Positions 4,222 to 21,040 of a DNA stretch of 64,000 bases are shown one piece after another. The notes beneath the pieces are model-generated. The model had not been told where the DNA came from, made no database searches, and saw only the letters and a program-made list of their open reading frames with translations. The position numbers were made by a program, and so were the translations under genes. The stretch comes from Thermoplasmata archaeon. Its GTDB lineage: Archaea > Thermoplasmatota > E2 > JACPAO01 > JAHFTW01. The stretch is from contig JAXDQS010000001.1 of NCBI GenBank assembly GCA_034667725.1, positions 192,001 through 256,000 of the forward strand. The letters run 5' to 3'. Positions within the stretch are counted from its first letter, which is position 1, and the number at the start of each line of letters is the position of its first letter.

Positions 4222-4350
4222 GCCGCCGAAGCCGGGTACGGGTCCCACCAGACTTGTTCGATGGGGTTATCAAAAGGTGCCGTCATCGAAGGCCGCCCCG
4301 CCCAGAGAGGGACACCCAGGTCCCTCCTGGCAGTACCGAGGCTTCCGCCC

Positions 4351-7300: not shown

Positions 7301-10300
7301 CCTCCGACCCGGCCAACCCGCTCATCCCCAACACCGGCGCCCTGCCCCTGGTGTCCTACTCGGGCACCCTGCTGGCCGGCGCCACCGACGGCCTGCCGGT
7401 CGCGACCTTCACGGACCGCGCCGCCACCGACGCCGCCCTGCCGGTCCTGATCACCGTGCGCGGCGGCGCCGGCCGCAACACCGTCGAGCTGCGGTTCTCG
7501 GAGGACGTCGTGGACGCCACCACCAAGGGCCCGCTCAAGGCCTCGAACTTCCTCTACTCGAACGGCAACGGCGGCTCCTCGACCTGCTCCAGCGGCGCCT
7601 CCAACATCGTGGACGTGCTGCCGGTCACCGGCTTCAACGACCGCTTCACCGGTGTGCTCAACACGCCGGCCGGCCAGCCGGGCCTGCACTACGACGACAT
7701 CGTCGGCTGCCCCACCGTCGCCAGCCGCGACGAGGTGCGCGCCCTGGCCTCGAGCATCATCGAGAAGGTCGGCCTGCGCGCCATGACCGACAGCACCCCG
7801 CGCGACATCCAGGACATCTTCGGCCCCGACATCCTGTCGGCCCGCTTCATCGACGCCCCAGCCCAGGCTGGCGCCGTCACGGGCGCGGACGGCACCATCG
7901 ACGCCGTCGAGGTCCGGTTCCGCGAGTACGTCTCCGACGCCGCGGCCGCCTTCGGCACCAGTGCCACCGTCACCGGCCAGTGGGCCGTCAAGGTCAACGA
8001 CGGCAGCCTCAAGACCCTCAAGGTCAAGGCCGTCGTCTCGAGCCAGAACGGCGTCCTCGGCGACAGTTGCACGGACACCCAGGCCCGCCCCCTCATCCTC
8101 TGGCCGGGCGAGGTCCAGCCGCCCACCAGCGGCCCCTCCAGCGTCAACGGCGTGGACGACGACACCCTGTTCCTCTGCCTGGAGAACACCGTCGGCGTCT
8201 CGACCCAGGGCACCCTGGGCCTCGGCACCGGCATGGTCGGCACCCTCAGCTACGCCGCCGCCAACCCGACGGCCCGCATCAAGGACCGCAGCGGCAACGG
8301 CTTCGCCGACATCACCCTCGGCAGCGCCCGCACCGTCACCGACGGCGCCCGCCCCGTCGTCCTCAACACCTGCCGCCCCGAGGTCACCCCAGCCCTGCGC
8401 TGCACCGGCGTGTCCCCCGAGTCGGCCGACCTCGACAACGACGGCCTCGTCGACGCCCTGCGCGTCGTGCTGTCCGAGCCCGTGAAGGACGACACCTACA
8501 AGCAGGTCGAGTGGGACCTCGGCTCCGGCTTCGCCATCACCGGCATGGACACCGGCGTCACCGTCGACGACGCCACCATCTTCCTCAAGTTCAACGAAGG
8601 CGCCACGCCGGACACCGGCCGCGGCCGCGCCTCCCAGCCGGGCCTGCCCGACCTGACGTTCAGCTCGACCGGCACGATGGCGGACCGCGCGGGCAACCGC
8701 ATCCGCGCCGTCCAGTCGGGCGCGTGCGGCGCCGCCACCGACACCCACTGCGCCGACGAGCGCGACGGCGTCGAGCCCGTGGTCGTGCGCTCCCAGGCCG
8801 AGGTCGGCTCCGACCTCGTCACCATCGCCCTCAGCGAGCCCGTCCAAGGCACCGGCCCGGTCGCCAGCGGCCGCCCCATCACCACCAGCGACATCGCCTA
8901 CCAGAACAAGGCGGGCGCGGGCGACGGCGCCACCGGCATCGTGGCCATCTCCCATGTCGCGGGCGAGTCGGTCCTCACCATCAAGCTCGACAAGAAGGTC
9001 ACCGAGTTCGACCGCCTCAACGACCGCTTCGTCTTCGTGACGGGCAGCATCAAGGAGGCCCAGTGCACGGTGTCGGCCACGACGCCCTCGTGCTACCGCC
9101 AGCTCGCCATGACGCGCCTCTTTGTCCCCATCGCCTTCGCCGGCGGCGCGGACCCCAAGCCGGCCGCCATCGACGACCTGGACGCCCCCGCCGAGGACGT
9201 CACCGCGACCTCGGTCCGCCTGACCTGGACCGCCCCCGACGACACCGACCTCGCGAGCTACCAGATCTACTTCTGCGAGTGCTCGTTCGCCGGCACCATC
9301 CCGACCGGCGCCCTGACGCCCCCGACCTCGGTCGTCATCCCGACCCCGGACCCCGGCGAGGCCCAGGAGGTCGTCATCACCGGCCTCACCACCGGCAAGA
9401 CCTACAACTTCGTCATCCGCGCCATCGACAACTCCGGCAACACCGCCGAGCTGTCGAACGTCGCGACCGCCCTCGTCGAGGCCCCGGACACCGAGGCGCC
9501 CGACATGGTGTTGGCCCTCCAGGACCTCGCCGCCAGCACCCCGCTGGGCTCCGTCGCCCTCGTCTGGGACGCCCCCGGCGACGACGGCGACCAAGGCACC
9601 GTGGCCGGCTACCGCATCGCGGTCGCCGACCGCCCGATCGCGGCCAGCGACTTCGAGGACTTCGAGACGACCGACTACTCGCTCAACCCGGCCGGCCTTG
9701 CGGACGCGGGCGACACCCAGCGCGCCACCATCTTCGGGCTCATCCCCGGCGACGAGGTGTTCGTGTACATCCTCGCGTACGACGACGCCAGCCCGCCCAA
9801 CGAGTCGCCCCTCAGCGGCGCCGTCCGCGCCACCGTCGGCGGCACCACCACCGACCTGGCCGACCCCGGCCCCATCACCGACCTCACGGCCACCGCCGCC
9901 ACCGACAGCACGGTGGAGCTGGAGTGGCGCGCGCCCGGCGACGACGGCCTCTCCGGCGGCCCCGTCACCGGCTACGACGTCTACTACAGCACCGCGCCGT
10001 TCGCGTCCTCGACCCGCCCGTCCGTGCCCCGCGCCTCCGACGTCACGCTGTCGCCCCGCACCCCCACGGCCGCCGGCCTGAGCCAGCGCGCCACCGTCGG
10101 CGGACTGGAGTCCGACACCGTGTACTACTTCATGGTCCTGGCCCGCGACGACGCGACCAAGACCAGCGCCTCGAACGTGGTCAACCGCGCCACCCTCCCC
10201 GGCGTCGGCGAGCTGACCATCGACGACCTGTTCGCCGCCAACAAGGAGCTCAACGAGAACCTCGAGGTCACCCACGAGGACGGCATCAACATCGTGAGCT

Positions 10301-10980
10301 TCACCATCCCCGAGGCCGCCCGCGACGCCGCCAAGGGCCTGCAGGTCTGGCGCGCCGAGGAGTGCGACGACGCCAACTACGTGCTCGTCAACACCTACGA
10401 CGCCGACGACAGCGTGTTCGAGGACGGCCGCTTCGAGGAGCCCGGCGCCACCACCGACTGCTACAAGGTCACGCTGTTCACCAAGGACAGCCAGGACTCC
10501 GCGCTCGGCCCCAAGGCCAACGCCAGCGACATCGAGCGGTTCGCCGAGCTCGACTCCGCCTCCGCCAGCGACGGCGGCATCGGCACCGGCATGTGGCTGA
10601 TGATCGGCGGCGGCGTTCTCCTGGCCATCCTGCTCGCGGCCCTGCTGGTCTTCCTGGTCCGCCGCCGTGGCGGCGGCCAGCAGACCCTGCCGCCCGAGGA
10701 GACGGCCGAGGGCGGCGAGGCCGGCGAGGGCTGGAGCGAGGTCCCGGAGGAGGGCGCGGCCGAGTCCGTCGCCCCCGCCGCGGACACCTGGTCCGAGCCC
10801 GCGCCCGCCGAGGCCGAGCCCGAGGCGCCGTTGGCCGCGCCGCCCGCCGCCGCGGCGACGACGGCCGCCACGACGCACTACGTGACCTGCCCGCGCTGCA
10901 GCTCGCCGTTCAGCGCCGTCGGCGTCAAGCCGCTCGCCATCCAATGCCCGAGCTGCGGCGTGCGCGGCACGCTGAAATAA
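4351..10980 (+). CDS. Giant cell-surface protein paralogue 1: Ig-like repeats, 3 FN3 domains, TM, cytoplasmic zinc ribbon
   Basis: The ORF is open from 4261; ATG 4351 gives a signal peptide (MPSTSRARTSFILALLLVAGALPALPVATAA). Repeated D.D.(N/D)G.(I/L/V)D and FSE.V motifs. FN3-like LTWTAPDD, LVWDAPGDDG, LEWRAPGDDG. TM MWLMIGGGVLLAILLAALLVFLV-RRR, then an acidic linker and CPRC-x15-CPSC. Confidence 0.9.
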   Translation: MPSTSRARTSFILALLLVAGALPALPVATAAAPVVTSANLLDEDNNGHLDAVLLTFDQAIRSDSVRPSDWTLGSAVARSVERQSSTQFKLFFQEALALDGNSNAINIAYTREADQPLENLATPFEDFTASTVPASAKKDMAKPILMAAYAVEATNYIVAVFSEAVTDNAGAILTHDEFVLTAGGAGAPAIDTTVAVTALGSPARVFRIPLNAAWTTAQLAHATKPTLAISGTNLVKDLATPANNNPTGMAAVPVGAPFIERVMANPGDDLVVVEFNGPVADSTGTAPLPATSSGDLTLRFQEGSGGGAIVTTDMVNPVFSDRVQLRVDAPLRPADFAAGTISKIVAQTDKVFAWKGASSVASYKVPAGAAGNLADADVYTNPYPTRLETVDRDLNGCIDAIQMTWNDDILDASLAASTGWVVVFPKKASGTPLPTTPPAPGIVGATLVSAITGAGVSPTLSPGVDDRVTFLTFTETDAATGCDLSLPAPLVGSTGPAGVRLLPRVSHCDGLDSGCTGLSPTDRAGRGIGASRGAFNDAGVLFRLPVIDSARPVLMTAATRDLPSSPDGQVDQILLSFSEPMKLGTLKQAQWNVRVPANQAQCPVPASTAYTVTSVGSASGTSGDTESLLLLGIQPSGTPDTGCILDIAYGTTPNALESSNGQVLPAIPANSLILTTATATAGGANSITAAATNFATAGALTGMRVDVSRAGTPLGSFTVTGVAGTTLTFSPAVAAASAPIAAGDVATVYRERDGAGPVLLDGRLVGAVGSRFATATFSEAVLGVNGNAVTNTDLTYKNNGAGGASGISCVATPSYTSGTCTPDPAVTTNPAQLSLTLNAVLAGGDVGTGKDCVQIVNYIPDENSLNPANPGVRDAAGNVGQPLEPSGPCRIFSTGGTVATVLAIETLDTSNPPNGAIDAIRVTFTGPVNDDFTDGVAKWKVKFGTTTATINTVQSGGNCGGSTLTPDVANDAVVFLCIAELTDTSDPANPLIPNTGALPLVSYSGTLLAGATDGLPVATFTDRAATDAALPVLITVRGGAGRNTVELRFSEDVVDATTKGPLKASNFLYSNGNGGSSTCSSGASNIVDVLPVTGFNDRFTGVLNTPAGQPGLHYDDIVGCPTVASRDEVRALASSIIEKVGLRAMTDSTPRDIQDIFGPDILSARFIDAPAQAGAVTGADGTIDAVEVRFREYVSDAAAAFGTSATVTGQWAVKVNDGSLKTLKVKAVVSSQNGVLGDSCTDTQARPLILWPGEVQPPTSGPSSVNGVDDDTLFLCLENTVGVSTQGTLGLGTGMVGTLSYAAANPTARIKDRSGNGFADITLGSARTVTDGARPVVLNTCRPEVTPALRCTGVSPESADLDNDGLVDALRVVLSEPVKDDTYKQVEWDLGSGFAITGMDTGVTVDDATIFLKFNEGATPDTGRGRASQPGLPDLTFSSTGTMADRAGNRIRAVQSGACGAATDTHCADERDGVEPVVVRSQAEVGSDLVTIALSEPVQGTGPVASGRPITTSDIAYQNKAGAGDGATGIVAISHVAGESVLTIKLDKKVTEFDRLNDRFVFVTGSIKEAQCTVSATTPSCYRQLAMTRLFVPIAFAGGADPKPAAIDDLDAPAEDVTATSVRLTWTAPDDTDLASYQIYFCECSFAGTIPTGALTPPTSVVIPTPDPGEAQEVVITGLTTGKTYNFVIRAIDNSGNTAELSNVATALVEAPDTEAPDMVLALQDLAASTPLGSVALVWDAPGDDGDQGTVAGYRIAVADRPIAASDFEDFETTDYSLNPAGLADAGDTQRATIFGLIPGDEVFVYILAYDDASPPNESPLSGAVRATVGGTTTDLADPGPITDLTATAATDSTVELEWRAPGDDGLSGGPVTGYDVYYSTAPFASSTRPSVPRASDVTLSPRTPTAAGLSQRATVGGLESDTVYYFMVLARDDATKTSASNVVNRATLPGVGELTIDDLFAANKELNENLEVTHEDGINIVSFTIPEAARDAAKGLQVWRAEECDDANYVLVNTYDADDSVFEDGRFEEPGATTDCYKVTLFTKDSQDSALGPKANASDIERFAELDSASASDGGIGTGMWLMIGGGVLLAILLAALLVFLVRRRGGGQQTLPPEETAEGGEAGEGWSEVPEEGAAESVAPAADTWSEPAPAEAEPEAPLAAPPAAAATTAATTHYVTCPRCSSPFSAVGVKPLAIQCPSCGVRGTLK

Positions 10981-10988
10981 CCCATCCT

Positions 10989-11176
10989 GCCGAGCCGGGG
11001 GCCGCCGCGCGCGTGAGCGCGCAGGACCGAGCACGCCCGCCTGCGCGAGCATCGCGAGCGCACGGGCCGAGGGCGCGGCCCCCTCGCCGTGGGGGCGCAG
11101 GGGGCGAAGCCCCCGCGCAGGCGGAACGAACCGCAGTTCGTTCCGAGCCGAACCTGTTCCTTGTCGTTTTAAATAC
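10989..11176 (+). repeat. Structured intergenic repeat, copy 1 (runs into the TATA box of the next gene)
   Basis: Aligns with 15883-16077 (direct) and 20878-21040 (inverted). Hairpins: GCGCGC-GTGA-GCGCGC, GGGGC-GAA-GCCCC, CGGAACGAAC-n4-GTTCGTTCCG. Confidence 0.9.
11167..11176 (+). promoter_or_regulatory. Archaeal TATA box
   Basis: TTTTAAATAC in an otherwise very GC-rich context, upstream of ATG 11250. An identical 10-mer occurs at 16068. Confidence 0.7.
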
Positions 11177-11249
11177 TTCCCGGGATGGAGCGGACCAAGC
11201 ACCGGACGCCGGACCTTAGGGCCCGGCTTCCGCCCGCAGGTTGATCCCC

Positions 11250-14200
11250 ATGGCCGCCGGTCCCTCCTCTAAACCTCACGCCTTCCGCAGCGTCGCCGTC
11301 TTGACGGCGCTCCTGGTGGCCGTCCTGGCGCCGCTGATTCCGCAGGCTGTCGCCGACGGGACCAGCCTCAGCATCGCGGTCGGTCCCCACTTCGAGATCG
11401 ACACCTCGAGCCCGACGTTCCAGGGCTGCCCCGGGTCGGACGCGACCAGCCCGCAGCTGCGCGCGCGCCCCGACGACGCGGTCGTGCAGACGCGGACGGT
11501 CCGCGTCTTCAACGGCGCCGCCGCCACGCAGACGCAGGTGACGTTCCGCTACACGGTGGCGGGCCCCGGCGCGCCGCCGGTGGACCGCTCCCTGACCTGG
11601 GACGAGGAAGGCTCCTCGGCGGCGGGCTGGACCGTGCAGGCCATCAACACCGGCAGCACGGCGGGCTCCTTCCGGGACCTGGTGTTCAACTCCGGCTCGC
11701 TGGTCCCCGGCGCCGCCGACTTCACCATCGCGTTCCGCGTCCCCACCACCGCCGTCGGCGACGCCGGCACCGCCACGCCTGACCTGTACCCCATCAACGT
11801 GCGCACGGCCGGCGGCGGCGACTTCGAGTCCACCCCGCAGCCGACCAGCTTCTGCATCCGCGTCGACAACAAGGCGCCCAAGCTCACGGACGCCGTCACC
11901 CGCGACACCGACGCCGACGGCCGCATCGACGCCTACGTCCTCACCTTCGACGAGCCCATGGACACGGCGGCCTCCGCCGCGCAGTTCGAGGTCAAGAGCG
12001 TGACCGACCCCAGCCCCTACCAGCCGCTGGGCTTCCGCGCCTCGCACACCTTCCGCCCCGGCGCCGGCACCAACCTGGGCGAGAAGACCGACGCGCTGCT
12101 GGACCGCCAGGCCGTCCTCAACCTCGCGCCCGGCTACTCCTACGACACCGGCGAGAAGCCGGACGTCACGTACCCGAAGGGCGGCGCCGTCGGCGTCATC
12201 CAGGACCAGGCCGGCAACAAGCTGGGCAAGATCGTCACCTCCGACGTCTCGGAGCGCGACGGCGCCAAGCCGGTGCTGGTGAGCGCCTACGGCTTCGACG
12301 GCGCCACCAACATCATCCTCACCTTCAGCGAGAAGGTCTCGGGCTCGCGCGCCGACAAGAACCTCGCCCTCGCGGACCTGTTCTACGAGGACTCGCTGCA
12401 GACCAAGAACTGCATCGGCGCCACCGACGGCGTCTCGGCCGAGCTGGGCGAGCCCAAGCCGAGCCCCGCGCCCGCGCCCGCGACCACCTTCATCATCCCG
12501 GTGCTCACGAGCCGCGCCGGCGCCGGCTGCACCAGCGTCCGCGTCGGCGACGGCGACTCGCACCCGTCCGCCGGCGACCGCATCAAGTTCTTCGACACTG
12601 GAAACTCGTGCGTCGGCCGCGACTTCGACCCGTGCGGCGCGCCCGTGTACGACGTGGCCAGCCTGCACGCCGTCCCCGCCCGCAACGCGCCGGTCGTCGT
12701 GACCGGGCCGTTTGTGAAGGAGGCCGAGGTCAACATCGACTCGTTCCAGTTGACGCTGCGCTTCAACGGCCCTGTCAGCTCGGCCCGCGGCGAGGACCAG
12801 CCCATCCGGCTGGAGGACCTCGACGTGGTGGCGGCCGACGGCACCGGCCAAGGCCCCGGCGGCATCGTCAACGTGCTGCACCGCCCCGGCTCCGACAAGG
12901 CCATCATCACCCTCGACCGCCGCACCCGCCCGACCGACGTGGACGACACGCCGGCGCGCATCAACATCCAGTGCAACGCGATCAAGGGCACCGGCCTGCC
13001 CAGCTTCGTCCCGTGCGGCGACCCGGACAACGACCGCTCGCCCGACGTCAACATGGTGGACCACACCCCGCCCGCCATCGTGGCCGCCGGCACCTACGAC
13101 GGCAACCGCGACGGCTACATCGACGGCGTCAGCCTGCTGTTCAACGAGCCGGTCGACGACGCCACCTTCTGCATCCAGAAGAACGTCGGCGTCCAGCCGC
13201 GCACCATCGCGCACGACTTCGGCGCCACCCCGGACAACATCTGCAACAACCTGGACATCCTGGAGATCGCGTCCATCCCTGGCCCCTACACCTTCGACAC
13301 CGACAAGGTCCAGAACGACGCGCAGGGCATCATCAAGTTCCCGCAGCGCGCCCCGCCGACCTTCAAGCCGGACACCAGCGAATACCTGCCCTACTCGATC
13401 AAGACCACCGGCGACGGCCTGTTCGCCGACCTGGCCCACCCCGAGCCGCCGACGCCCGGCGTCGAGCCGTGGCAGACCGCGAACCTGATGCTGCGCATCT
13501 CGAAGGACCCGGTCACCTGCCCCGACCCGAACATCCCGTGCGCCACCACGCTCACGGTCGCCGACTGGGCCCCGCCCGTCGTGCTGTCCGCCCAGACCGT
13601 GGACACCAAGCCCGCCGTCAAGCCCTCGGACATCGGCGCCCTCGGCTCCGACCCCGTGCCCGACCTCGAAGGCGACGGCTTCCTCGACGGCTACCGCGTC
13701 ACCTTCTCGGAGCGCATCGACGACACCTCGTTCAACGCCGCCGAGTGGCAGGTCGCGGGCTACAAGGTCACCGGGATGCGCACCTACGAGCCGCACGTCA
13801 CCAAGAAGGCCGACCAGAAGGCCCTCAGCAACGACACGGTCATCACCATCCAGTTCGAGCCCAGCAAGGTGGCCGACACCGACGCGCGCCCCGAGCTGCA
13901 CTACCTCGGCTCGACCCAGGCCCGCGCCGGCCTCGACGACCTCGTCGGCAACCGCCTGCTGCCCTTCGGCTCCATCGGCGTCAACGAGGCGGACGACGCC
14001 GGACCCGTCATCGTCGGCATCGCCGCCATCGCGGGCCGCGCCGACGTGACGCTGCTGTTCAGCGAGCCCGTCGACGACGGCAGCCACGGCGCCTTGTCGC
14101 GCCGCGCCCTCCAGTACGGCAACGTCAACGCCAACAAGGTCGCCGAGAGCGCCGCCTCCGGCATGGCCGACCAGGACGCCGTGGTGCACAAGCCGGCCAC

Positions 14201-15788
14201 GCGCTCGGTCGTGATCACCCTCAATGCCCCGCTGAGCACCGGCGACATCAACGACGACACCATCGCGGCCCAGCCGAACTCGGTGTTCGAGACCTCGCCG
14301 ACGGTGCAGGCCAAGAAGGTCGCGTCCTACAAGCCGCACGGCATGGACTTCGCCCGCGACGGCGTGCCCCCGGGCAACGTCACCGCCTCGGTCGTCGCCC
14401 CGCTCATCACCGCCAACTCGGTGACGCTGCAGTGGACCGCGCCCGGCAACGACGGCACCTCGACCCTGCCGGCCCCCGCCCGCGACGGCAAGACCTACGC
14501 CAACGTCACCGGCTACCTCGTCAAGGTGTCCTCCGAGCCCATCACGCCGGAGAACTTCCTGTCGCCGGCCGCCCCGGGCACCATCGCCTTCGGCTACTCC
14601 GACGCCGCCGCCAAGCCGTTCACCGACGGCTCGCGCAACGAGATGGAGCTGGACGACCTGGTCGCCGTGTTCAACCCGGACCTCGGCGCGCTCGCCGGCC
14701 CCGGTGTCATGCAGCAGGTGACGGTGCGCGGCCTGAAGTCCAACACGCTGTACTACTTCGCCGTGGCCGCGTTCGACGACTCCGCCCCCGAGCCCCAGCT
14801 TGGCGGCATCGGCACCGGCACGGTCAGCGCCACCACGGCCGTCGACCCGACGCCGCCCATCGGCACCCCGGTCATCACCTCGAGCACGCACCGCCCCGAC
14901 GTCACCCGCCCCAGCAACAGCAAGACCGCGATTTTCGACTGGACGCCGGCGCGCGACGACGAGTCGCTGGTCACCTACCACACCGCGGTCAACCACGACC
15001 CCGGCTACGTCGCCACCGCGACCGACGAGATGACCACCCGCCTCAGCAAGGAGGTCGTCGTGTCCACCGAGGGCGTCTGGACCTTCCACGTCGCCGCGTG
15101 CAGCGGCGGCGGCTGCGGCGCCACCGGCCACTACAACTTCGGCGTCGGCTACTCGCCGCTCGACAAGCAGGAGATCCGGGTCGCCAACCAGTACGTCAAC
15201 TTCACGGCCGTCCGCGACGACAAGGCGAAGTCCACCACCATCACGTGGGAGCTGCCGCCCGAGGAGTTCCTGCCGTCGCGCGCCAACCTGGAGGCCGTCG
15301 TGGTGTACCGCCTCGACTGCGAGCCCAGCGCCGGCTGCAAGCCCACCGAGGTCCAGCGCGTCAACGGCGACTACACCAACCTCAAGACCGGCTCGGTCAC
15401 GGACACCTCCGACAAGGCGACGCTGGCGTCGGCCTACCGCGTCGACATGGTGTTCGCCTCCGGCCAGGAGCAGGCCGAATCCCTCAGCGGCTTCTCCAAG
15501 GTCCGCGACGTCACCCCGGCCGAGTCCAACCTGATGTGGATCCTCATCGCCATCGGCGCCGTCGTGCTCCTGGCCATCGTGGGCTTCGTCGTGTACGCCA
15601 TGCGCCGCAAGGGCCCCGGCGCCGCCGAGGCCTGGACCGAGGACCAGCCGGCCGGCACCGACCCGACCAGCGGCCTGCCGGCGCACGACGTCCGCTGCCC
15701 GAGCTGCCAGACGGCGTTCCAGGCGGTGGGCACGCTGCCGTTGCAGATCACCTGCCCCAACTGCGGCGTCGGTGGCCTGCTCCAGTAA
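11250..15788 (+). CDS. Giant cell-surface protein paralogue 2: Ig-like repeats, FN3, TM, cytoplasmic zinc ribbon
   Basis: Signal peptide MAAGPSSKPHAFRSVAVLTALLVAVLAPLIPQAVA. Motifs DTDADGRID, DGNRDGYID, DLEGDGFLD. FN3-like LQWTAPGNDG. TM LMWILIAIGAVVLLAIVGFVVYAM-RRK, then CPSC-x15-CPNC. Confidence 0.9.
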   Translation: MAAGPSSKPHAFRSVAVLTALLVAVLAPLIPQAVADGTSLSIAVGPHFEIDTSSPTFQGCPGSDATSPQLRARPDDAVVQTRTVRVFNGAAATQTQVTFRYTVAGPGAPPVDRSLTWDEEGSSAAGWTVQAINTGSTAGSFRDLVFNSGSLVPGAADFTIAFRVPTTAVGDAGTATPDLYPINVRTAGGGDFESTPQPTSFCIRVDNKAPKLTDAVTRDTDADGRIDAYVLTFDEPMDTAASAAQFEVKSVTDPSPYQPLGFRASHTFRPGAGTNLGEKTDALLDRQAVLNLAPGYSYDTGEKPDVTYPKGGAVGVIQDQAGNKLGKIVTSDVSERDGAKPVLVSAYGFDGATNIILTFSEKVSGSRADKNLALADLFYEDSLQTKNCIGATDGVSAELGEPKPSPAPAPATTFIIPVLTSRAGAGCTSVRVGDGDSHPSAGDRIKFFDTGNSCVGRDFDPCGAPVYDVASLHAVPARNAPVVVTGPFVKEAEVNIDSFQLTLRFNGPVSSARGEDQPIRLEDLDVVAADGTGQGPGGIVNVLHRPGSDKAIITLDRRTRPTDVDDTPARINIQCNAIKGTGLPSFVPCGDPDNDRSPDVNMVDHTPPAIVAAGTYDGNRDGYIDGVSLLFNEPVDDATFCIQKNVGVQPRTIAHDFGATPDNICNNLDILEIASIPGPYTFDTDKVQNDAQGIIKFPQRAPPTFKPDTSEYLPYSIKTTGDGLFADLAHPEPPTPGVEPWQTANLMLRISKDPVTCPDPNIPCATTLTVADWAPPVVLSAQTVDTKPAVKPSDIGALGSDPVPDLEGDGFLDGYRVTFSERIDDTSFNAAEWQVAGYKVTGMRTYEPHVTKKADQKALSNDTVITIQFEPSKVADTDARPELHYLGSTQARAGLDDLVGNRLLPFGSIGVNEADDAGPVIVGIAAIAGRADVTLLFSEPVDDGSHGALSRRALQYGNVNANKVAESAASGMADQDAVVHKPATRSVVITLNAPLSTGDINDDTIAAQPNSVFETSPTVQAKKVASYKPHGMDFARDGVPPGNVTASVVAPLITANSVTLQWTAPGNDGTSTLPAPARDGKTYANVTGYLVKVSSEPITPENFLSPAAPGTIAFGYSDAAAKPFTDGSRNEMELDDLVAVFNPDLGALAGPGVMQQVTVRGLKSNTLYYFAVAAFDDSAPEPQLGGIGTGTVSATTAVDPTPPIGTPVITSSTHRPDVTRPSNSKTAIFDWTPARDDESLVTYHTAVNHDPGYVATATDEMTTRLSKEVVVSTEGVWTFHVAACSGGGCGATGHYNFGVGYSPLDKQEIRVANQYVNFTAVRDDKAKSTTITWELPPEEFLPSRANLEAVVVYRLDCEPSAGCKPTEVQRVNGDYTNLKTGSVTDTSDKATLASAYRVDMVFASGQEQAESLSGFSKVRDVTPAESNLMWILIAIGAVVLLAIVGFVVYAMRRKGPGAAEAWTEDQPAGTDPTSGLPAHDVRCPSCQTAFQAVGTLPLQITCPNCGVGGLLQ

Positions 15789-15800
15789 AGCCGAGACGGC

Positions 15801-15830
15801 CCTTTTTCCTTTCCTTCTCCCTGTTTTCGT
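15801..15830 (+). terminator. Pyrimidine/T-rich putative archaeal terminator
   Basis: CCTTTTTCCTTTCCTTCTCCCTGTTTTCGT begins 12 nt after the stop at 15788. Confidence 0.45.
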
Positions 15831-15882
15831 CCCCACTGGACACAGATTCCACAGATTCGCTGGAAGCTGGCGGGTCGAGCGT

Positions 15883-16077
15883 CGAGCCGGGGGCCGCCGT
15901 GCGCGTGAGCGCACAGGACGAGCGGGCCGGCCCGTGCGAGCGAAGCGAGCGCGCCGGCGCGAGGAGCGGCCCCCAAGCCGGGGGGTCGCAGGGGCGCAGC
16001 CCCCGTTCCCAACAGGCGGGACGAACCGCGCAGCGTGTTCGTCCCGAGCCGAATCTGTTCCTTGGCGTTTTAAATAC
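15883..16077 (+). repeat. Structured intergenic repeat, copy 2 (runs into the TATA box of the next gene)
   Basis: Homologous to copy 1 with compensatory stem changes: GTGCGC-GTGA-GCGCAC and CGGGACGAAC..GTTCGTCCCG. Confidence 0.9.
16068..16077 (+). promoter_or_regulatory. Archaeal TATA box
   Basis: TTTTAAATAC about 36 nt upstream of ATG 16113. Confidence 0.7.
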
Positions 16078-16112
16078 CCCCAGGATTGGATGCCTTACCC
16101 CGCTGGTGGCGT

Positions 16113-19100
16113 ATGGTCAACCGAAAATCCGCGTCCCTCCCCTACGTGCTGGCTTTCCTGATGGTGTTCTCCATCTCGCAAGCCATCGTGCCCGAGGCGG
16201 AGGCAGGCGTCGCCCCCGCTGGCCTCATGAGCGTCTCCGTCGAGCCCAGCTTCACGACCAACGTCATCATGGTCAAGCAGGGCATCAGCGCCGAGCGCCT
16301 GGTGCGGGTGTCGCAGGGCGACCCGCTCAACCCGATGACGACCATCGAGTTCGTCTGGTTCATGCGCGACGACACTTCGACGCCGGCCTGCCGCGGCCCG
16401 CCGCGCGACCTGTGCGCCACGGCCGTCAAGTTCGACTGGATCAAGGAGACCAGCTACGCCATGCGCCCCGGCTGGAAGGTCGAGGCCGCCACCTCCACGG
16501 CCGCCAAGATCCTCCGCTTCGTCTCCGACGGCACCCAGGAGCTGCGCTCGGGCACGCCGCAGGACTTCAACGTCGCCTTCAGCCAGCGCGGCGCCGCCCA
16601 GGACGACGAGTACCACATCCAGGTCCGCGGCTACTGCGGCGCCGAGTGCCAGCCCGGGGTCGCCTTCGAGACCACCTGCGCCAGCACCCGCGCCCCCGAG
16701 TTCACCTGCATCCACACCAACCCGCCCTTCACCGGCGCCGCCCCGATCCCCGCGGCGGACTGCAACGCGCCCTGCGGCCAGCTGCCGAGCCTGGTGCTGC
16801 GCATCGACAGCGTGCCCCCGGACCCGCCGGCGGTCATCATGCAGGACATCGACCACAACGGCCACATCGACCGCTTCGTGGCGGACTTCCCCAAGAAGCT
16901 CGACGCCAAGTCGTTCGACGCCCGCCTGTTCACCCTCACCGCCCGCGGCCGCCTGTTCGGCTCCAGCCTCACGGACGCCGGCTACACCATCCAGAACGCC
17001 TACTTCGTCAACCCGGACAACCCGGTGCGCGTGGTCTTCCTGGTCAACGAGATGCCGTACTACGACACCGGCGACCAGGTCAACCTGCGCTACGCCGGCA
17101 CCAGCCTGCGCGACGAGGCCGGCAACCCGCTGCGCGGCATCAACGTCCAGGCCACCGACCGCGCCCCGCCGGTCATCGTCGCCGCCTACGGCCTCCAGGG
17201 CTACGACGGCGTCCACGTGACCTTCAGCGAGCCGGTCGTCGGCACCGGCAACGCCCAGGACCCCGCCACCGGCGTCGGCCTGCAGGACCTGCTGTTCTTC
17301 GACGACGGCGGCAGCGCCCCCGACAGCAAGGTCGGCTGCCCCGCCGCGAGCCCGTGCGTCCTGAGCATCGCCGACTCCCGCTTCGGCGCCATCACGCACC
17401 AGCCCGGCCCCCGCACCGGCCACCAGGCCACCATCAAGACCTCGATCAACCCGGTCACGAGCACGCCCTACACCTTCGGCCCCAACGACGTGCACCCGCT
17501 CAAGGGCGACATGCTCGGCGTCGCCTCCAGCGGCGCCGCCTGCGCCCCCGGCGAGGACCCGCCCTGCGACTCGAAGATCAAGGACGCGGCCGGCCTCAAG
17601 ATGTGGCACCCGCTCACGGCCCCCGCGTCCGTCCGGCACATCACCCGCCCCCTCCTGGTGCGCGCCGAGGTCGACATCGGCTCCGACGCCCTCAAGCTCT
17701 GGTTCAACGGCCCCGTGCGCGCCGCCAAGGAGCCCGGCGTCACGACGCCCCAGCCGATCTCGGTGTCCAACATGGACATCGTGACGGCGGCCGGCACCGG
17801 CGTCGGCCCCCAGGGCCTCATCGGCGACTACTTCCGCGCCGTCGACCAGGACTTCATCGTCGTCAAGCTCGACGCCAAGGCCCGCCCCACCGACGTCGAC
17901 GCGACCCCGACCTCGATCCGCCCGCACTGCAAGAAGATCGTCGGCAGCGGCCTCCCCGAGACCAACGACCAGGCGTTCCTGCCGTGCGACAACCCGGACC
18001 TGTTCTACGAGCAGGAAGCCCGCGTCAAGGGCACCGGCACCTTGGACGCCAAGGGCCGCGACCACGACCTGCCGTCGCCCGGCGCCGCCTTCGTGGACGA
18101 CACGCCGCCGCGCATCGTCCAGGTCCGCACCGTGGACACCGACCACAACGGCTGGCTCGACGGCCTCGAGCTCACCATGAGCGAGCCCGTGGACGACGTC
18201 ACGTTCTGCTCGAACGCCAACACCGCCCCCAACTTCTGCCCCGACTCCTGGACCCCGGTCGGCGGCATCTCCCAGGTCGGCCTCGTGATGATGCAGAACC
18301 TGCGCGCCACCGACGACCGCTCGCAGGAGTGCCTCGGCCTCTACCGCTGGGAGACCGGCCTGGTGGTCAACGACAACGTCGGCATCATCAAGGCCATCAA
18401 CGTCGAGCGCAGCCCCACCGGCGAGTACATCGTGACCAGCCGCGACTGCGTCGAGCGCTACTTCAACCAGGACACCGGCATCCGCATGGACACCGGCCAC
18501 CTGCCGACCTTCACCACCACGGCGCGCGGCCTGTTCGCCGACCTGTCGGTGCCGGAGAACCGGATGCCGCAGTACTGCCAGCTGCAGCGCCTCACCCACT
18601 TCCACCACCCGGACGCCGCCACCACCAAGGACTGCGGCCTCCTGGCCAGCACCAAGGCGCAGTACACCGCCCCCGTCTCCGACGGCGCCCCGCCGGTCGT
18701 CATGGCCGCCCGCACCGTGGACACGCCCGCCGTCAACAAGGACGGCATCCCGGACAAGCCCGCCGTGAACCTCTGGGGCGACGGCCGCATCGACGGCTAC
18801 CGCCTCACCATGAGCGAGTCCGTCAAGGACTCCACCTTCGACCGCCGCGACTGGCTGGTGCAGCGCCTCGGCGCCGCGCAGGCCCCGATCCACGAGGTCA
18901 ACGGCTTCCGCAGCTACGACCTCAACGAGACCCTGGGCGCGCTGCGCTCCAACGACCGCGAGCTCACGGTGCTGTTCAACCCGGACACGGTGCCCGACAC
19001 GGACGCCCGCCCCGAGCTGACCTACCGCCGCGACCCCGACAGCAAGGGCCTCGCGGACATCGTCGGCAACGTCATGGTGGACTTCGACGAGTTCGCCGTG

Positions 19101-20876
19101 GTCGAGCAGGACGACTCCCGCCCCGTCATCGTGGGCATCGAAGGCTACGTCGGCGAGCGTGTCCTGACCCTCCACTTCAGCGAGCCCGTGGACGACGGCG
19201 CCCAAGGCAAGCTGGTGTCGGAGGACTTCTTCTACCACAACAACGACGCGACCACGAACCCCGGCGGTGTTGCCGGCAAGGCGGTGTCCAACCCGGAGAC
19301 GGGACAGGCGGTCAACGTCATCCACGTCCCCGACGTCGACTGCACCGGCAACCTCGAAGAGGACGCCGACGGCTGCAACGAGAAGGCCATCATCCCGCTC
19401 GACCGCGCCCTCACCAACTCCGACCTGACCACCGACCGCATCAACGCGGAGAAGGACACCATCTACGAGAAGGCCCCCACCGTGGTGCCGGTGCAGCGCA
19501 AGGCGGTGCCGAACTTCCAGCAGAAGCTGTCGGTCGGCGCCGACGTGACGCCCCCGGCCAAGGTCACGGACCTGCGCGTGCAGACCGACGCCGTGCTCGC
19601 CAACTCGGTGCTGCTGGCCTGGACCGCGCCCGCGGACGACAGCCTGGCCGGCGGCGCCGTGACGAGCTACGTCTTCAAGGTGTCCACCAGCGCCATCGAC
19701 CCCGCCGGCTTCGACGCCTTGGTCAACCCGAACGGCATCACGCCCGAGTTCGAGCCCGCCGCCATGGCGGCGGTCAACCAGACGCAGACCCTGCGCCTCG
19801 TCGGCTTGAACCCGACCACCCAGTACCACTTCGCCATCCGCGCCGTGGACGAGGCGGGCAACGCCGGCGGCGTCTCCAACGCCGTCACGGCGCTCACCTC
19901 GCGCGACGCCACGGCGCCCGTCGGCACCCTCACGGTCTCGAGCACCAGCCACAAGGCCGGCGAGACGGCCCCCAAGGTGCAGGGCATCTTCTCGTGGAAC
20001 AAGCTGGAGGACCCCGAGTCCACCGTCGTGTACCGCTACGCCCTGACCGGCAGCCCCGCCTACCAGGTGCTGGCCGCCGACAAGTCCGTGACCGGCACCA
20101 GCGTCACCGTCGACATCCCCTCCGAAGGCGACTGGACGTTCCACGTCGCGGCCTTCAGCGGCGGCGGCTCGACCCCGACGGCGCACTTCTCGTTCGGCCG
20201 CGGCTCCCCCGTGCTGGCGGCGGACGCCATCGCCGCCGCCAACGACCGCCTCAAGGACAACGTCGAGATCGTCCGCAAGCCCGTCGAGATCCAGGACGGC
20301 GTCGAGGTCGACCTCAACACCATCACCTGGACCCTGCCGCCCGAGTCGGACCTGCCCGGCACCCTCGAGGCCATCGAGATCTGGCGCCTCGACGCCGGCA
20401 TCCCGACCCTGGTCACGACCCAGCCCGGCAGCTACAGCGAGCTCAAGAGCGGCAACTTCACGGACGTCACCCAAGGCGCGGACGAGAACTCGCTCTACCG
20501 CGTCAACATGGTGTTCGCGCAGGACCAGCGCCAAGCCGACCCAAGCGTCTCCGGCCAGTTCAAGGCCCTCCAGAACCAGACGCCCGGCGAAATCCCCGCC
20601 TGGGTCTACGTCCTGGCAGGCATCGCGCTGGCGTTGATCATCGCGGGCATCATCATCTACTTCGTGCTGCGCGGCCGCCAGAAGGCCGCCGCGGCCGGAG
20701 GGGTGGCGTACTCGTGGGAGTCGGCCGACCCGGAGGCCCTCGGCATCGACGAGGCCACCGGCCTGCCGGTCCACGAGGTCAAGTGCCCGTCGTGCAACAA
20801 CCCGTTCCAGGCGGTGGGCGTCCTGCCCCTGCCGGTGACGTGCCCGACGTGCCAGACGACGGGCATGCTGGAGTAA
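16113..20876 (+). CDS. Giant cell-surface protein paralogue 3: Ig-like repeats, FN3, TM, cytoplasmic zinc ribbon
   Basis: Signal peptide MVNRKSASLPYVLAFLMVFSISQAIVPEAEA. Motifs DIDHNGHID, DTDHNGWLD, GDGRID. FN3-like LAWTAPADD. TM WVYVLAGIALALIIAGIIIYFVL-RGR, then CPSC-x15-CPTC. Confidence 0.9.
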   Translation: MVNRKSASLPYVLAFLMVFSISQAIVPEAEAGVAPAGLMSVSVEPSFTTNVIMVKQGISAERLVRVSQGDPLNPMTTIEFVWFMRDDTSTPACRGPPRDLCATAVKFDWIKETSYAMRPGWKVEAATSTAAKILRFVSDGTQELRSGTPQDFNVAFSQRGAAQDDEYHIQVRGYCGAECQPGVAFETTCASTRAPEFTCIHTNPPFTGAAPIPAADCNAPCGQLPSLVLRIDSVPPDPPAVIMQDIDHNGHIDRFVADFPKKLDAKSFDARLFTLTARGRLFGSSLTDAGYTIQNAYFVNPDNPVRVVFLVNEMPYYDTGDQVNLRYAGTSLRDEAGNPLRGINVQATDRAPPVIVAAYGLQGYDGVHVTFSEPVVGTGNAQDPATGVGLQDLLFFDDGGSAPDSKVGCPAASPCVLSIADSRFGAITHQPGPRTGHQATIKTSINPVTSTPYTFGPNDVHPLKGDMLGVASSGAACAPGEDPPCDSKIKDAAGLKMWHPLTAPASVRHITRPLLVRAEVDIGSDALKLWFNGPVRAAKEPGVTTPQPISVSNMDIVTAAGTGVGPQGLIGDYFRAVDQDFIVVKLDAKARPTDVDATPTSIRPHCKKIVGSGLPETNDQAFLPCDNPDLFYEQEARVKGTGTLDAKGRDHDLPSPGAAFVDDTPPRIVQVRTVDTDHNGWLDGLELTMSEPVDDVTFCSNANTAPNFCPDSWTPVGGISQVGLVMMQNLRATDDRSQECLGLYRWETGLVVNDNVGIIKAINVERSPTGEYIVTSRDCVERYFNQDTGIRMDTGHLPTFTTTARGLFADLSVPENRMPQYCQLQRLTHFHHPDAATTKDCGLLASTKAQYTAPVSDGAPPVVMAARTVDTPAVNKDGIPDKPAVNLWGDGRIDGYRLTMSESVKDSTFDRRDWLVQRLGAAQAPIHEVNGFRSYDLNETLGALRSNDRELTVLFNPDTVPDTDARPELTYRRDPDSKGLADIVGNVMVDFDEFAVVEQDDSRPVIVGIEGYVGERVLTLHFSEPVDDGAQGKLVSEDFFYHNNDATTNPGGVAGKAVSNPETGQAVNVIHVPDVDCTGNLEEDADGCNEKAIIPLDRALTNSDLTTDRINAEKDTIYEKAPTVVPVQRKAVPNFQQKLSVGADVTPPAKVTDLRVQTDAVLANSVLLAWTAPADDSLAGGAVTSYVFKVSTSAIDPAGFDALVNPNGITPEFEPAAMAAVNQTQTLRLVGLNPTTQYHFAIRAVDEAGNAGGVSNAVTALTSRDATAPVGTLTVSSTSHKAGETAPKVQGIFSWNKLEDPESTVVYRYALTGSPAYQVLAADKSVTGTSVTVDIPSEGDWTFHVAAFSGGGSTPTAHFSFGRGSPVLAADAIAAANDRLKDNVEIVRKPVEIQDGVEVDLNTITWTLPPESDLPGTLEAIEIWRLDAGIPTLVTTQPGSYSELKSGNFTDVTQGADENSLYRVNMVFAQDQRQADPSVSGQFKALQNQTPGEIPAWVYVLAGIALALIIAGIIIYFVLRGRQKAAAAGGVAYSWESADPEALGIDEATGLPVHEVKCPSCNNPFQAVGVLPLPVTCPTCQTTGMLE

Positions 20877-20877
20877 C

Positions 20878-21040
20878 GCGGACAACCGCCTGGGGCGTTT
20901 GTCCGCCCTCCAGCGGGGGCTTTGCCCCCGCACCCCCACGGCAAGGGGGCCGCGCCCTCGGCCCGTGCGCTCGCTGGCGCTCGCGCAGGCGGGCGCCCTC
21001 GGTCCTGCGCGCTCACGCGCGCGGCGGCCCCCGGCCCGGC
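20878..21040 (-). repeat. Structured intergenic repeat, copy 3 (inverted)
   Basis: The reverse complement of 20914-21040 is nearly identical to 10989-11115. An analogous terminal hairpin GCGGACAA..TTGTCCGC sits at 20878-20906. Confidence 0.9.

What the first reader, a model, noticed from the sequence alone, without database searches (positions are those of the whole stretch)
10989..21040. Three copies of a ~160-190 bp structured element with compensatory substitutions, one after each paralogue
Seen: copies at 10989-11176 (+), 15883-16077 (+) and 20878-21040 (-). Stem 1 is GCGCGC-GTGA-GCGCGC versus GTGCGC-GTGA-GCGCAC (paired C:G to T:A change, GNRA loop). Stem 2 is GGGGC-(GAA/GCA/AAA)-GCCCC, where only the loop changes. 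Stem 3 is CGGAACGAAC/GTTCGTTCCG versus CGGGACGAAC/GTTCGTCCCG (paired A:T to G:C change, loop 4 versus 10 nt), and a different-sequence hairpin occupies the same place in copy 3. Covariation points to selection on ssDNA or RNA structure. Inference: a REP/MITE-like element (for example an HUH-transposase substrate) or a new ncRNA.
Basis: partly seen in the sequence, partly recalled or inferred. Interest (0 to 1): 0.75.

Follow-up and report, generated by a model that had tools for sequence, protein, structure and literature searches.

The report
Gene-end-docking multi-hairpin repeat, archaeal
The three look-alike stretches are copies of a gene-less, tightly folding DNA repeat about 155 bases long, present about 15 times in this soil archaeon and in diverged form in related genomes, that sits with one hairpin against the end of a gene and probably spreads as folded single-stranded DNA by an enzyme not yet identified.

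Summary
The three copies and their paired substitutions are real. The true units are window 10989-11148 (+), 15883-16046 (+) and 20878-21040 (-).

- **Copy number.** The genome is a 2.3-Mb, 71% GC Thermoplasmatota MAG. It holds 13 full and 2 degenerate copies, all intergenic, next to unrelated genes.
- **Fold.** Outer stem P1 closes hairpins P2 and P3. A G-run, hairpin P4 and a hypervariable hairpin P5 follow. Every helix shows compensatory changes.
- **Loops.** GCGNAGC/GCGNNAGC mini-hairpin caps occur 51 times on one strand and 3 on the other, whatever the neighbouring gene's orientation.
- **Position.** P5 lies 0-5 nt from, or overlaps, the stop codon of a gene on the opposite strand in 11 of 15 copies.
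- **Relatives.** Five related genomes carry diverged versions with the same architecture. They sit at different loci, against stop codons or tRNA 3' ends.
- **Not found.** No TIR, TSD, ORF or Rfam match, and no Y1, TnpB or IS110 transposase.

Verdict: a mobile, REP/BIME-like or PATE-like element that acts as folded ssDNA, mover unknown. Covariation alone does not prove selection. First readers noted other copies of this family elsewhere in this genome.

The parts
10989..11148 (+). Copy 1, full element (core type A). The 5' boundary is near CCGAGCC and the 3' boundary is the foot of P5.
   Evidence: (112.8 bits).
10997..11006 (+). Copy 1, P1 5' strand GGGGGCCGCC. It pairs with 11073-11083.
   Evidence: 10 bp, all 11 sequences paired, with one G:C to A:U double change (the C6 copy).
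11007..11022 (+). Copy 1, P2 hairpin GCGCGC-GTGA-GCGCGC. It contains GCGTGAGC, a GCGNNAGC mini-hairpin.
11035..11067 (+). Copy 1, P3 long hairpin GCCCG..TGCGC..GCGCA..CGGGC, with tandem G-A pairs near the apex.
   Evidence: two pairs switch C:G to G:C and U:A to C:G between the two core types.
11073..11083 (+). Copy 1, P1 3' strand G(C)GCGGCCCCC.
11091..11114 (+). Copy 1, G-run plus P4 hairpin GGGGGC-GAA-GCCCCC. This module is shared with five related genomes.
11122..11145 (+). Copy 1, P5 hairpin CGGAACGAAC-CGCA-GTTCGTTCCG. Its 3' arm begins with GTTCG, which is invariant in element-free orthologous promoters.
11149..11176 (+). Host promoter of paralogue 2, with a TATA-like TTTTAAATA at 11167-11175. 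It is not part of the repeat.
   Evidence: conserved upstream of the gene-2 orthologues of G004 and G005, which lack the element.
10978..10980 (+). TAA stop of giant paralogue 1, 8 nt before copy 1.
15800..15834 (+). T-rich tract just after the stop of paralogue 2 (15788). It is a likely archaeal oligo-T terminator and is also present in G004.
   Evidence: The terminator role is inferred.
15883..16046 (+). Copy 2, full element (core type B/intermediate). P1 is 15889-15898 with 15964-15974, P2 is 15899-15914, P3 is 15926-15958, P4 is 15991-16003 and P5 is 16017-16046.
   Evidence: (98.5 bits).
16047..16077 (+). Host promoter of paralogue 3 (TTTTAAATA at 16068-16076). It is not part of the repeat.
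20878..21040 (-). Copy 3, full element (core type A), inverted. P1 is 21023-21032 with 20945-20955, P2 is 21007-21022, P3 is 20961-20994, P4 is 20915-20929 and P5 is 20879-20905.
   Evidence: (102.4 bits).
20874..20876 (+). TAA stop of giant paralogue 3. The foot of P5 of copy 3 starts 2 nt later.
   Evidence: In G005 the same stop is followed after 16 nt by the next gene's TATA box, with no element.

Best explanation
This is a non-autonomous, gene-less mobile repeat that folds as single-stranded DNA. It is an archaeal counterpart of REP/BIME elements or of IS200/IS605-type PATEs.

One strand folds into a three-way junction (P1 closing P2 and P3), followed by a G-run and two hairpins (P4 and P5). 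The hairpins are capped by GNA or GNNA loops of the extra-stable DNA mini-hairpin type.

Copies are made and inserted at the 3' ends of genes. P5 is docked against, or overlaps, the last nucleotides of a protein or tRNA gene on the opposite strand.

The fold is kept for two reasons. The unidentified trans-acting machinery needs it, and template switching at such stable hairpins keeps perfecting and extending the stems. That would also explain why P5 is hypervariable and sometimes pairs with the host gene's own stop codon.

Shown: repeat family, fold, strand bias, gene-end position, different loci in different genomes. Inferred: ssDNA as the active form, the copying mechanism, template switching.
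For: **Family and spread**
- G000 holds 13 full and 2 degenerate copies at 78-92% identity, all intergenic.
- Neighbouring genes are unrelated: carboxyltransferase, Hsp20, aIF5A-like, ferredoxin, DEAD helicase, ArsA.
- The G-run+P4 pattern occurs 2-10 times in each of five other genomes of the same family. The reversed-pattern control gives 0 hits in 197 genomes.
- Those copies have the same P1/G-run/P4/P5 layout.
- Only 1 of about 23 of their loci coincides with a G000 copy.

**Filled against empty sites**
- G001 L170 is filled and G000 C4:79364 is empty.
- G000 copy 3 is filled and G005 is empty.

**Fold**
- 98.8% of cells pair, against 34-62% when the partner is slid.
- Each of the four helices has double changes.
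- P5 stem positions 5-9 each have 3-4 Watson-Crick pair types.
- P1 covaries between genomes: GGGGGCCGC, GGGTGGCCGC and GGGCGGTCGC, each with a matching partner.

**Strand and DNA signature**
- GCGN(N)AGC occurs 51 times on the element strand and 3 on the other.
- This holds although the orientation relative to neighbouring genes is mixed.
- DNA mini-hairpins of this sequence are far more stable than their RNA versions (PMC13037366).
- G-U/G-T pairs are only about 1-2% of stem cells.

**Gene-end docking**
- In G000, P5 lies 0-5 nt from a stop codon or overlaps it in 11 of 15 copies.
- In G019, P5 lies about 1-10 nt from the 3' ends of tRNA-Arg, Glu, Phe and Pro.
- Host C-termini are conserved up to the stop.

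**Mobility of parts**
- A 58-nt two-hairpin module sits in the P2 loop of two copies and in the P3 loop of a third.
Against: - No candidate mover was found. Y1_Tnp, OrfB_IS605 and IS110 gave no match, and the TnpB zinc-ribbon model gave only three sub-threshold matches, in a 90%-complete MAG. Mobile genes are often missing from MAGs, so this is weak evidence.
- No TIR, TSD or conserved target motif defines an insertion chemistry.
- Energy-based folding does not separate the two strands. Z-scores are -0.1 to -4 on both.
- The active strand is inferred from loop motifs only.
- Hairpins directly behind stop codons are general in this genus. aIF5A has a different one in most of the 12 genomes. A host function could therefore also explain the position.
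Confidence: 0.55

Rival explanations
1. Host-function reading. The hairpin cluster is kept because it works for the cell at transcript 3' ends, for example as a termination or read-through barrier between close-packed genes, or as protection of mRNA and tRNA precursor ends from 3' exonucleases. In this view the copies are recruited terminator or stabiliser modules, and structure is conserved at the RNA level.
For: - Every copy lies just behind a gene end. Three or four of them fill most or all of the space between convergent stop codons.
- In the genus, aIF5A is followed directly by a hairpin in most of the 12 genomes.
- Outside this family, intergenic GNA-capped hairpins are sense to the upstream gene 24 times and antisense 10 times.
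- All stems also form on the opposite strand.
- In E. coli, REPs within 15 nt of a stop codon affect translation (PMC12306157).
Against: - The special loops are strand-specific (51:3). They lie on the strand antisense to the docked gene in most copies, and antisense to both neighbours in about half.
- Archaeal termination is known to use oligo-T tracts. Paralogue 2 has such a tract before its copy.
- Orthologous genes in related genomes do without the element.
- G-U pairs are very rare.
- This reading still needs a copying mechanism to explain 15 near-identical 150-nt units.
Confidence: 0.22
2. Integrative mini-cassette reading. The element enters by site-specific recombination at gene ends, carrying a short replacement copy of the target's 3' end and displacing the old one. 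Earlier notes of this scan propose this for other hairpin cassettes in the genome.
For: - At C10:86419, the last 10 nt of the P1-side gene before its TAG (CAGGCCATCC) recur as the 3' arm of P5.
- Copies 1 and 2 are flanked by (C)CGAGCCG on both sides.
- In G007 the aIF5A tail (27 nt) is duplicated around a different hairpin cassette.
- Docking at tRNA 3' ends is typical of integrase-driven elements.
- One tyrosine-recombinase gene is present at C10:27530-28006.
Against: - 12 of 15 copies show no flanking direct repeat above the shuffled controls.
- Host C-termini are unchanged up to the stop at every locus that could be compared.
- Three copies at unrelated loci share the same P5 stem (CGGACAGGC), so P5 is not simply a copy of the target.
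Confidence: 0.1
3. No dedicated mobility. The units spread only by ectopic gene conversion or segmental copying between hairpin-rich intergenic regions, and template-switch mutation alone creates and maintains the stems.
For: - Core types and P4 types are reassorted between copies.
- Copies are clustered: 8 of 15 on contig C10 and none on the largest, 666-kb contig.
- Partial duplicates of the 5' end precede two copies.
- Template switching can create and repair stems (PMC8794818, PMC3820800).
Against: Conversion needs pre-existing homology at the recipient site. Yet the element appears at loci that are simple short spacers in relatives. The sharp, repeated docking of the same end (P5) at gene ends, in two genera, is not expected from random conversion.
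Confidence: 0.1

Closest known systems
REP/BIME elements of bacteria (with RAYT, a Y1 HUH transposase)
   Same: Extragenic, GC-rich, hairpin-forming and multi-copy. Often found within a few nucleotides of stop codons. Modular mosaics. Thought to act as folded single strands. Species-specific sequence families.
   Different: REPs are 20-40 bp single palindromes, usually in more than 100 copies, with a GTAG or CGTC tag and a cognate RAYT gene (PMC2817692, PMC3733652). Here the unit is about 155 nt with five helices. There are about 15 copies, no consistent tag and no RAYT. The host is an archaeon.
IS200/IS605-derived PATEs (palindrome-associated transposable elements, described in haloarchaea; from my own knowledge)
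   Same: ORF-less, with no terminal inverted repeats and no target duplication. Hairpins are near the ends, the structure is strand-specific, and the host is archaeal.
   Different: PATEs share ends with resident IS1341/IS605 copies and need TnpA. No TnpA or TnpB is detectable here, and no fixed 4-5 nt target flanks the copies.
ERIC/IRU and other enterobacterial structured repeats (from my own knowledge)
   Same: Imperfect palindromes of about 120-150 nt in transcribed intergenic regions. Longer variants are made by insertions at fixed internal sites, much like the 58-nt module in the P2 or P3 loops.
   Different: These are bacterial, conserved across genera in sequence, and lack both GNA-capped mini-hairpins and gene-end docking.
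IS1397/ISKpn1-type insertion into REP loops (from my own knowledge)
   Same: A mobile unit that lands in the apical loop of a pre-existing extragenic hairpin, as the nested 58-nt module does.
   Different: Those are full insertion sequences that encode a transposase. The module here is 58 nt and encodes nothing.
Quasi-palindrome template-switch mutation (PMC8794818, PMC3820800)
   Same: It explains one-step paired changes and the extension of stem identity into flanking sequence, as seen where P5 pairs with host stop codons.
   Different: It is a mutation mechanism, not an element. It does not explain dispersal to new loci.

Membership tests
REP/BIME (RAYT-mobilised) | Short (20-40 bp) single palindrome in high copy number (usually >100) | tested here: not met
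   The unit is about 150-165 nt with five helices. There are 15 loci in 2.3 Mb.
REP/BIME (RAYT-mobilised) | Conserved GTAG or CGTC tetranucleotide at one end of the palindrome | tested here: not met
   The 5' flanks vary: CGAGCC, TTGGCC, CGAACC and others. CGTC occurs in only 2 of 13.
REP/BIME (RAYT-mobilised) | Cognate Y1 HUH transposase (RAYT) gene in the genome | tested here: not met
   PF01797 gave no match in the own genome (90% complete). The positive controls did match.
REP/BIME (RAYT-mobilised) | Extragenic location, often close to stop codons | tested here: met
   All 15 loci are intergenic. 14 of 15 lie within 17 nt of a stop codon.
MITE | Terminal inverted repeats | tested here: not met
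   The 5' end (..GCCGGGGGCCGCC) and the 3' end (P5 foot ..TCCG) are not complementary. P1 is internal.
MITE | Target-site duplication of fixed length | tested here: not met
   Local alignment of the flanks against 200 shuffles found one copy above the shuffles. Short repeats of 7-10 nt occur at 3 of 15 copies, with differing lengths and positions.
IS200/IS605-type PATE | Strand-specific subterminal hairpins, no TIR, no TSD | tested here: met
IS200/IS605-type PATE | Resident TnpA (Y1) and/or TnpB copies sharing the element ends | tested here: not met
   PF01797 and PF01385 gave no match. PF07282 gave only sub-threshold zinc-ribbon matches.
IS200/IS605-type PATE | Fixed 4-5 nt target sequence flanking one end | tested here: inconclusive
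   P5 is followed by 1-3 nt and then TTA, CTA or TCA (a stop codon on the other strand). TGCTA recurs in G003 and G011, but empty sites share no motif beyond the stop.
Known ncRNA family (Rfam 15) | Match to a curated covariance model | tested here: not met
   No match at gathering score on the window, and none at E<=1 on seven loci.
Independent ncRNA gene | Own conserved promoter, and consistent transcription of the structured strand | tested here: not met
   No conserved AT-rich box lies upstream of P1. The structured strand is antisense to both neighbours in about half of the copies. Expression itself cannot be tested here.
Integrase-type integrative element at gene 3' ends | Direct repeat of the target gene's 3' end flanking the insert (attL/attR) | tested here: not met
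   Seen only at C10:86419 (10 nt). Absent at the other loci, and host C-termini are unchanged.

The most novel reading that the evidence does not exclude
The family is an undescribed class of ORF-less archaeal mobile element.

- It recognises gene ends as such, both stop codons and tRNA 3' ends, rather than a fixed sequence.
- It docks a terminal hairpin there.
- It re-templates the inner arm of that hairpin on the host gene's last nucleotides, by fold-back or template-switch copying nucleated by extra-stable GNA mini-hairpins.
- It accretes further hairpin modules by insertion into its own loops.
- It is moved by an enzyme outside the known HUH, TnpB, IS110 and DDE families.
Probability: 0.25. 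Interest if true: 0.85.

Novelty: new variant of a known kind. Interest (0 to 1): 0.62.

Why it matters
Small structured repeats are well studied in bacteria but hardly at all in archaea. How gene-less elements choose their sites and move is an open question.

This family offers a compact case. It has a defined fold, a clear single-strand signature and a sharp rule of position: one particular end lies against the end of a protein or tRNA gene. It has visible module gain in hairpin loops, and diverged relatives in several genomes for comparison.

It is also a caution for structure prediction. In very GC-rich genomes with stable DNA hairpins, compensatory changes can come from template switching and need not mean a functional RNA.

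If the docking and arm-matching reflect a real mechanism, it would be a new way for selfish DNA to sit harmlessly at gene ends. It would also be a source of rapid turnover of 3' regions in streamlined archaeal genomes.

Tried and rejected
- **Rfam.** Searches at gathering score and at E<=1 found nothing for the element.
- **Other collections.** blastn against the phage and plasmid collections found no match.
- **Exact-pattern scans.** Scans of genome contigs, IMG/VR and metagenome contigs gave nothing, apart from one chance hit inside a coding region.
- **'Species-only family'.** The core model R1 found no copy in 37 other genomes of the order, so I first held this view. I rejected it when the P4-module pattern revealed diverged relatives in five genomes.
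- **'P5 is each gene's own terminator'.** Rejected. P5 stems are related between unrelated loci, and three copies share one stem.
- **'The tail shared by copies 1 and 2 belongs to the element'.** Rejected. It is the orthologous promoter.
- **'The element carries a small gene'.** Rejected. The small ORFs next to P5 are unrelated.
- **Gene-tail replacement at the carboxyltransferase, aIF5A-like and C5 loci.** Rejected. The C-termini are conserved.
- **Free-energy z-scores.** They did not separate the strands or DNA from RNA.
- **P4-P5 covariance model.** I gave up on a second model because MAFFT could not align P5 structurally.
- **Ribozyme or tRNA-like fold.** No ribozyme-like or tRNA-like match was seen for the element (Rfam; ARAGORN found only ordinary flanking tRNAs).
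Full report
**1. The observation**

The three stretches are real and alignable.

The window is 69-77% GC throughout. The three large + strand ORFs (4261-10980, 11241-15788, 16086-20876) carry fibronectin type III domains.
- Copy 1 starts 8 nt after the TAA of the first ORF.
- Copy 2 lies 94 nt after the stop of the second, behind a T-rich tract.
- Copy 3 is inverted, and its last hairpin starts 2 nt after the TAA of the third.

**2. Genome and family size**

The window is C1:192001-256000 of a 2.32-Mb, 26-contig assembly that is 90% complete. The nearest titled relatives of a neighbouring gene are Thermoplasmatota archaeon MAGs.

blastn, a covariance model and nhmmer agree on 13 full copies plus two degenerate ones (C1:4620-4757 and C10:457918-458068). 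All are intergenic.

Eight copies lie on contig C10, four on C1, two on C5 and one on C6. None lies on the largest contig, C3 (666 kb). The chance of that under even spread is 0.713^15, about 0.006 by my arithmetic.

The genes next to the copies are unrelated housekeeping genes. Small ORFs beside the copies share no similarity, so the element carries no cargo. The link to the paralogues is therefore incidental.

**3. Anatomy**

RNAalifold and a hand-written structure give the same picture.
- **P1.** GGGGGCCGCC pairs over about 65 nt with G(N)GCGGCCCCC.
- **P2.** Hairpin GCGCGC-GNNA-GCGCGC, inside P1.
- **P3.** A 10-bp hairpin with a variable apex, also inside P1.
- **Junction strands.** CAGGA(C)CGAG and CGAGG are nearly invariant.
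- **After P1.** A G-run, hairpin P4 (GGGGGC-GAA-GCCCCC or GGGGCGC-GCA-GCGCCCC) and hairpin P5 follow.

On 11 copies, 98.8% of stem cells are standard pairs. The figure is 34-62% when the partner is slid by 1-3 columns. Six pairs show double changes, at least one in each helix.

P5 is the most variable part. Twelve of 15 copies have perfect 9-bp stems, and stem positions 5-9 each show three or four Watson-Crick pair types.

Minimum free energies are low, but z-scores are modest (about -0.1 to -4) on both strands, as expected for 70% GC. The case for the fold therefore rests on covariation, not on energy.

**4. Which strand, and DNA or RNA?**

The loops are one-sided. GCGNAGC or GCGNNAGC occurs 51 times on the element strand of the 15 copies and 3 times on the other strand. 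The background is about 1.7 per kb per strand.

These are the sequences of the 'mini-hairpin DNA' motif. The DNA form is extraordinarily stable and the RNA form much less so (PMC13037366).

G-U/G-T pairs make up only about 1-2% of stem cells.

The orientation of the element relative to its neighbours is mixed, and in about half of the copies the loop-bearing strand is antisense to both neighbours. No conserved AT-rich box precedes the copies.

The constraint therefore follows the element's own strand, not the host transcripts. That fits a folded single-stranded DNA better than an RNA.

**5. Position**

In G000 the foot of P5 lies 0-5 nt from the stop codon of a gene on the opposite strand, or the stem contains that stop, in 11 of 15 copies. 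C10:109001-109023 and C5:182149-182177 both start CTGA and contain the stop.

In three or four convergent pairs the element fills most or all of the spacer.

In seven copies the P1 end lies 17 nt or less from the stop of a gene in the same orientation, or overlaps it.

Where there is spare spacer, the element still hugs the stop. By my own rough Fisher combination of five loci, P is about 0.005.

Host C-termini are intact:
- carboxyltransferase ends HGTVI* across the genus;
- the aIF5A-like protein ends MITKM*;
- the C5 gene ends (F/W)IG*.

**6. The shared 'tail' of copies 1 and 2**

Paralogues 2 and 3 are only 32.5% identical as proteins. Yet the ~45 nt after P5 are nearly identical.

The same block, CCGAATCTGTT(C/G)CTTG..GTTTTAAATAC, stands upstream of the orthologues of both genes in G004 and G005, which have no element. 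It is the host promoter.

Homology to those element-free promoters begins exactly at GTTCG. That is the first five bases of the 3' arm of P5, at the same spacing from CCGAA in all six sequences. At these two loci, therefore, the outer arm of P5 overlaps ancestral host DNA, and the inner arm is complementary to it.

**7. Relatives**

The core model R1 finds nothing in 37 other genomes of the order.

The G-run+P4 pattern is different. It occurs in G019 (10 hits; a different genus), G003 (5), G006 (3), G001 (3) and G011 (2). The reversed control gives no hit in 197 genomes of the class, and there is no hit outside this family.

Their context shows the same plan in G003, G011, G001 and most G019 copies:
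- an outer stem that covaries with G000's P1 (GGGTGGCCGC/GCGGCCACCC in G003 and G011; GGGCGGTCGC/GCGACCGCCC in G001);
- a multi-hairpin core of different content;
- the G-run and P4;
- a genome-typical P5 (CGGACAAACG.. in G019; CGCGAAACG.. in G003 and G011, GCGAAACG.. in G001).

P5 is followed at once by a reverse-complement stop codon. In four G019 copies it is followed instead by the 3' end of tRNA-Arg, Glu, Phe or Pro, about 1-10 nt away.

Mapping their flanks onto G000 shows that only one of about 23 loci coincides with a G000 copy. That one is the 65-residue zinc-ribbon gene at C10:4907, and there the two P5 sequences are unrelated.

Clean filled/empty pairs exist:
- In G001, the orthologue of the gene that ends at C4:79364 in G000 reads ..QVPLGETGSLRSPRFAGG*, running through P5. 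G000, without the element, has ..QVPLA* followed by a 53-nt spacer.
- In G005, the stop of paralogue 3 is followed after 16 nt by the next gene's TATA box. G000 has copy 3 at that place.

The family is therefore older than the species, differs in location between genomes and is homogenised within genomes. This is the behaviour of a mobile repeat.

**8. P5 and the host gene's last bases**

In five copies the outer base pairs of P5 depart from the genome's usual P5 sequence, and instead contain the host's last codon bases and stop. These are the two G000 copies named above and G019 L171, L176 and L184.

For example, GAT TGA AACG in L176 ends a protein whose C-terminus..YQEED*, matches ..YEEED* in G000. 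GG TGA AACG occurs in L184. In each case the inner arm is complementary.

Chance complementarity of 4-6 nt at five of about 18 protein-docked copies is very unlikely.

Two explanations remain open: selection for a stem that reaches the stop, or template-switch copying. [quoted passage not shown]

The same mechanism weakens the inference from covariation to selection.

**9. Modularity**

A 58-nt two-hairpin module (GAAGCGAAAGCCCG..GCAACC) is inserted in three places:
- the P2 loop of C10:296523;
- the P2 loop of the deletion derivative C10:457918;
- the P3 apical loop of C10:22765.

A relative of the module lies in another cassette at C3:490317-490369.

Core types (A, B) and P4 types are combined in several ways. 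Two copies are preceded by a truncated duplicate of their own 5' end.

**10. What could move it**

- PF01797 (Y1 HUH), PF01385 (OrfB_IS605) and PF01548 (IS110) give no match in the genome.
- PF07282 gives only three sub-threshold matches.
- One tyrosine recombinase is present at C10:27530-28006.
- There are no TIRs and no regular target duplication.
- One copy (C10:86419) has a 10-nt direct repeat of the neighbouring gene's last bases, and copies 1 and 2 are flanked by (C)CGAGCCG.
- These repeats keep an integrase-type or cassette-type reading alive, but only weakly.

**11. Verdict**

I read the element as a non-autonomous mobile repeat that acts as folded ssDNA and docks at gene ends (0.55). 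A host 3'-end function is the main rival (0.22).

It is a new variant of a known kind. The gene-end docking and arm-matching may turn out to be something new.

**12. Earlier notes of this scan**

The notes told me that the organism is a Thermoplasmatota archaeon, which I checked. They also showed that first readers had flagged other copies of this same family on other pieces of the genome, and that other agents had described tail-duplicating hairpin cassettes here.

I tested the tail-duplication idea for this family and found it mostly not met. The 'matched mirror arm' idea I found partly met.

Noticed in passing
G000 contigs outside the window, e.g. C3:171730-171765, C3:365409-365443, C4:86315-86350, C11:11261-11295: This is a separate hairpin repeat family, CGGATTKCACGGA-N10-12-TCCGTGNAATCCG. 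It has a 12-bp stem and about 12 copies, and it is unrelated to the element studied.
   Followed up: no
G000 C3:223779, C3:267869, C4:18696, C10:432108, C11:32460, C12:47: Another small repeat, the hairpin CTAGGGGCGAAGCCCCTAG. It has a GCGAAGC cap and CTAG ends, in about 8 intergenic copies.
   Followed up: no
G007 locus L150, just after the aIF5A-like gene: The last 27 nt of the gene (ATGATCACCAAGATGGAACAGTCCTAG) occur twice, about 110 nt apart, around a hairpin cassette. This is a duplicated gene tail of the kind earlier notes describe for this lineage.
   Followed up: partly
Window 15836-15860; also loci L027, L028 and L142 (congeners): The short motif CACAGATT / CGCAGAT(G/T) is repeated two or more times in intergenic regions of several genomes of the genus, between terminator-like tracts and promoters.
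   Followed up: no
Window 11136-11154 and 16037-16055; L157, L158, L141, L142: A palindromic box, GTTCGG-N5-7-CCGAA(T)C, is conserved about 15 nt upstream of the TATA box of the giant surface-protein paralogues in three genomes. It is a likely operator for a shared regulator.
   Followed up: partly
G000 C3:490270-490400: A different cassette lies behind a stop codon. It contains a relative of the 58-nt module and is flanked by a 12-nt direct repeat, CCCCGGTCGGAT.
   Followed up: no
G000 C10:27530-28500: The only Phage_integrase match in the genome lies beside a GNA-capped hairpin (C10:28337-28357) and a tRNA-like T-arm sequence (C10:28468-28492). It may be an integrated element.
   Followed up: no
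G001 loci L164, L170, L175: In all three G001 copies found, an open frame on the opposite strand appears to read through P5 and ends between P5 and P4 (..ETG..RFA(A/G)G*). This would give short element-encoded C-terminal extensions. Only L170 was confirmed as a real gene, by its G000 orthologue.
   Followed up: partly
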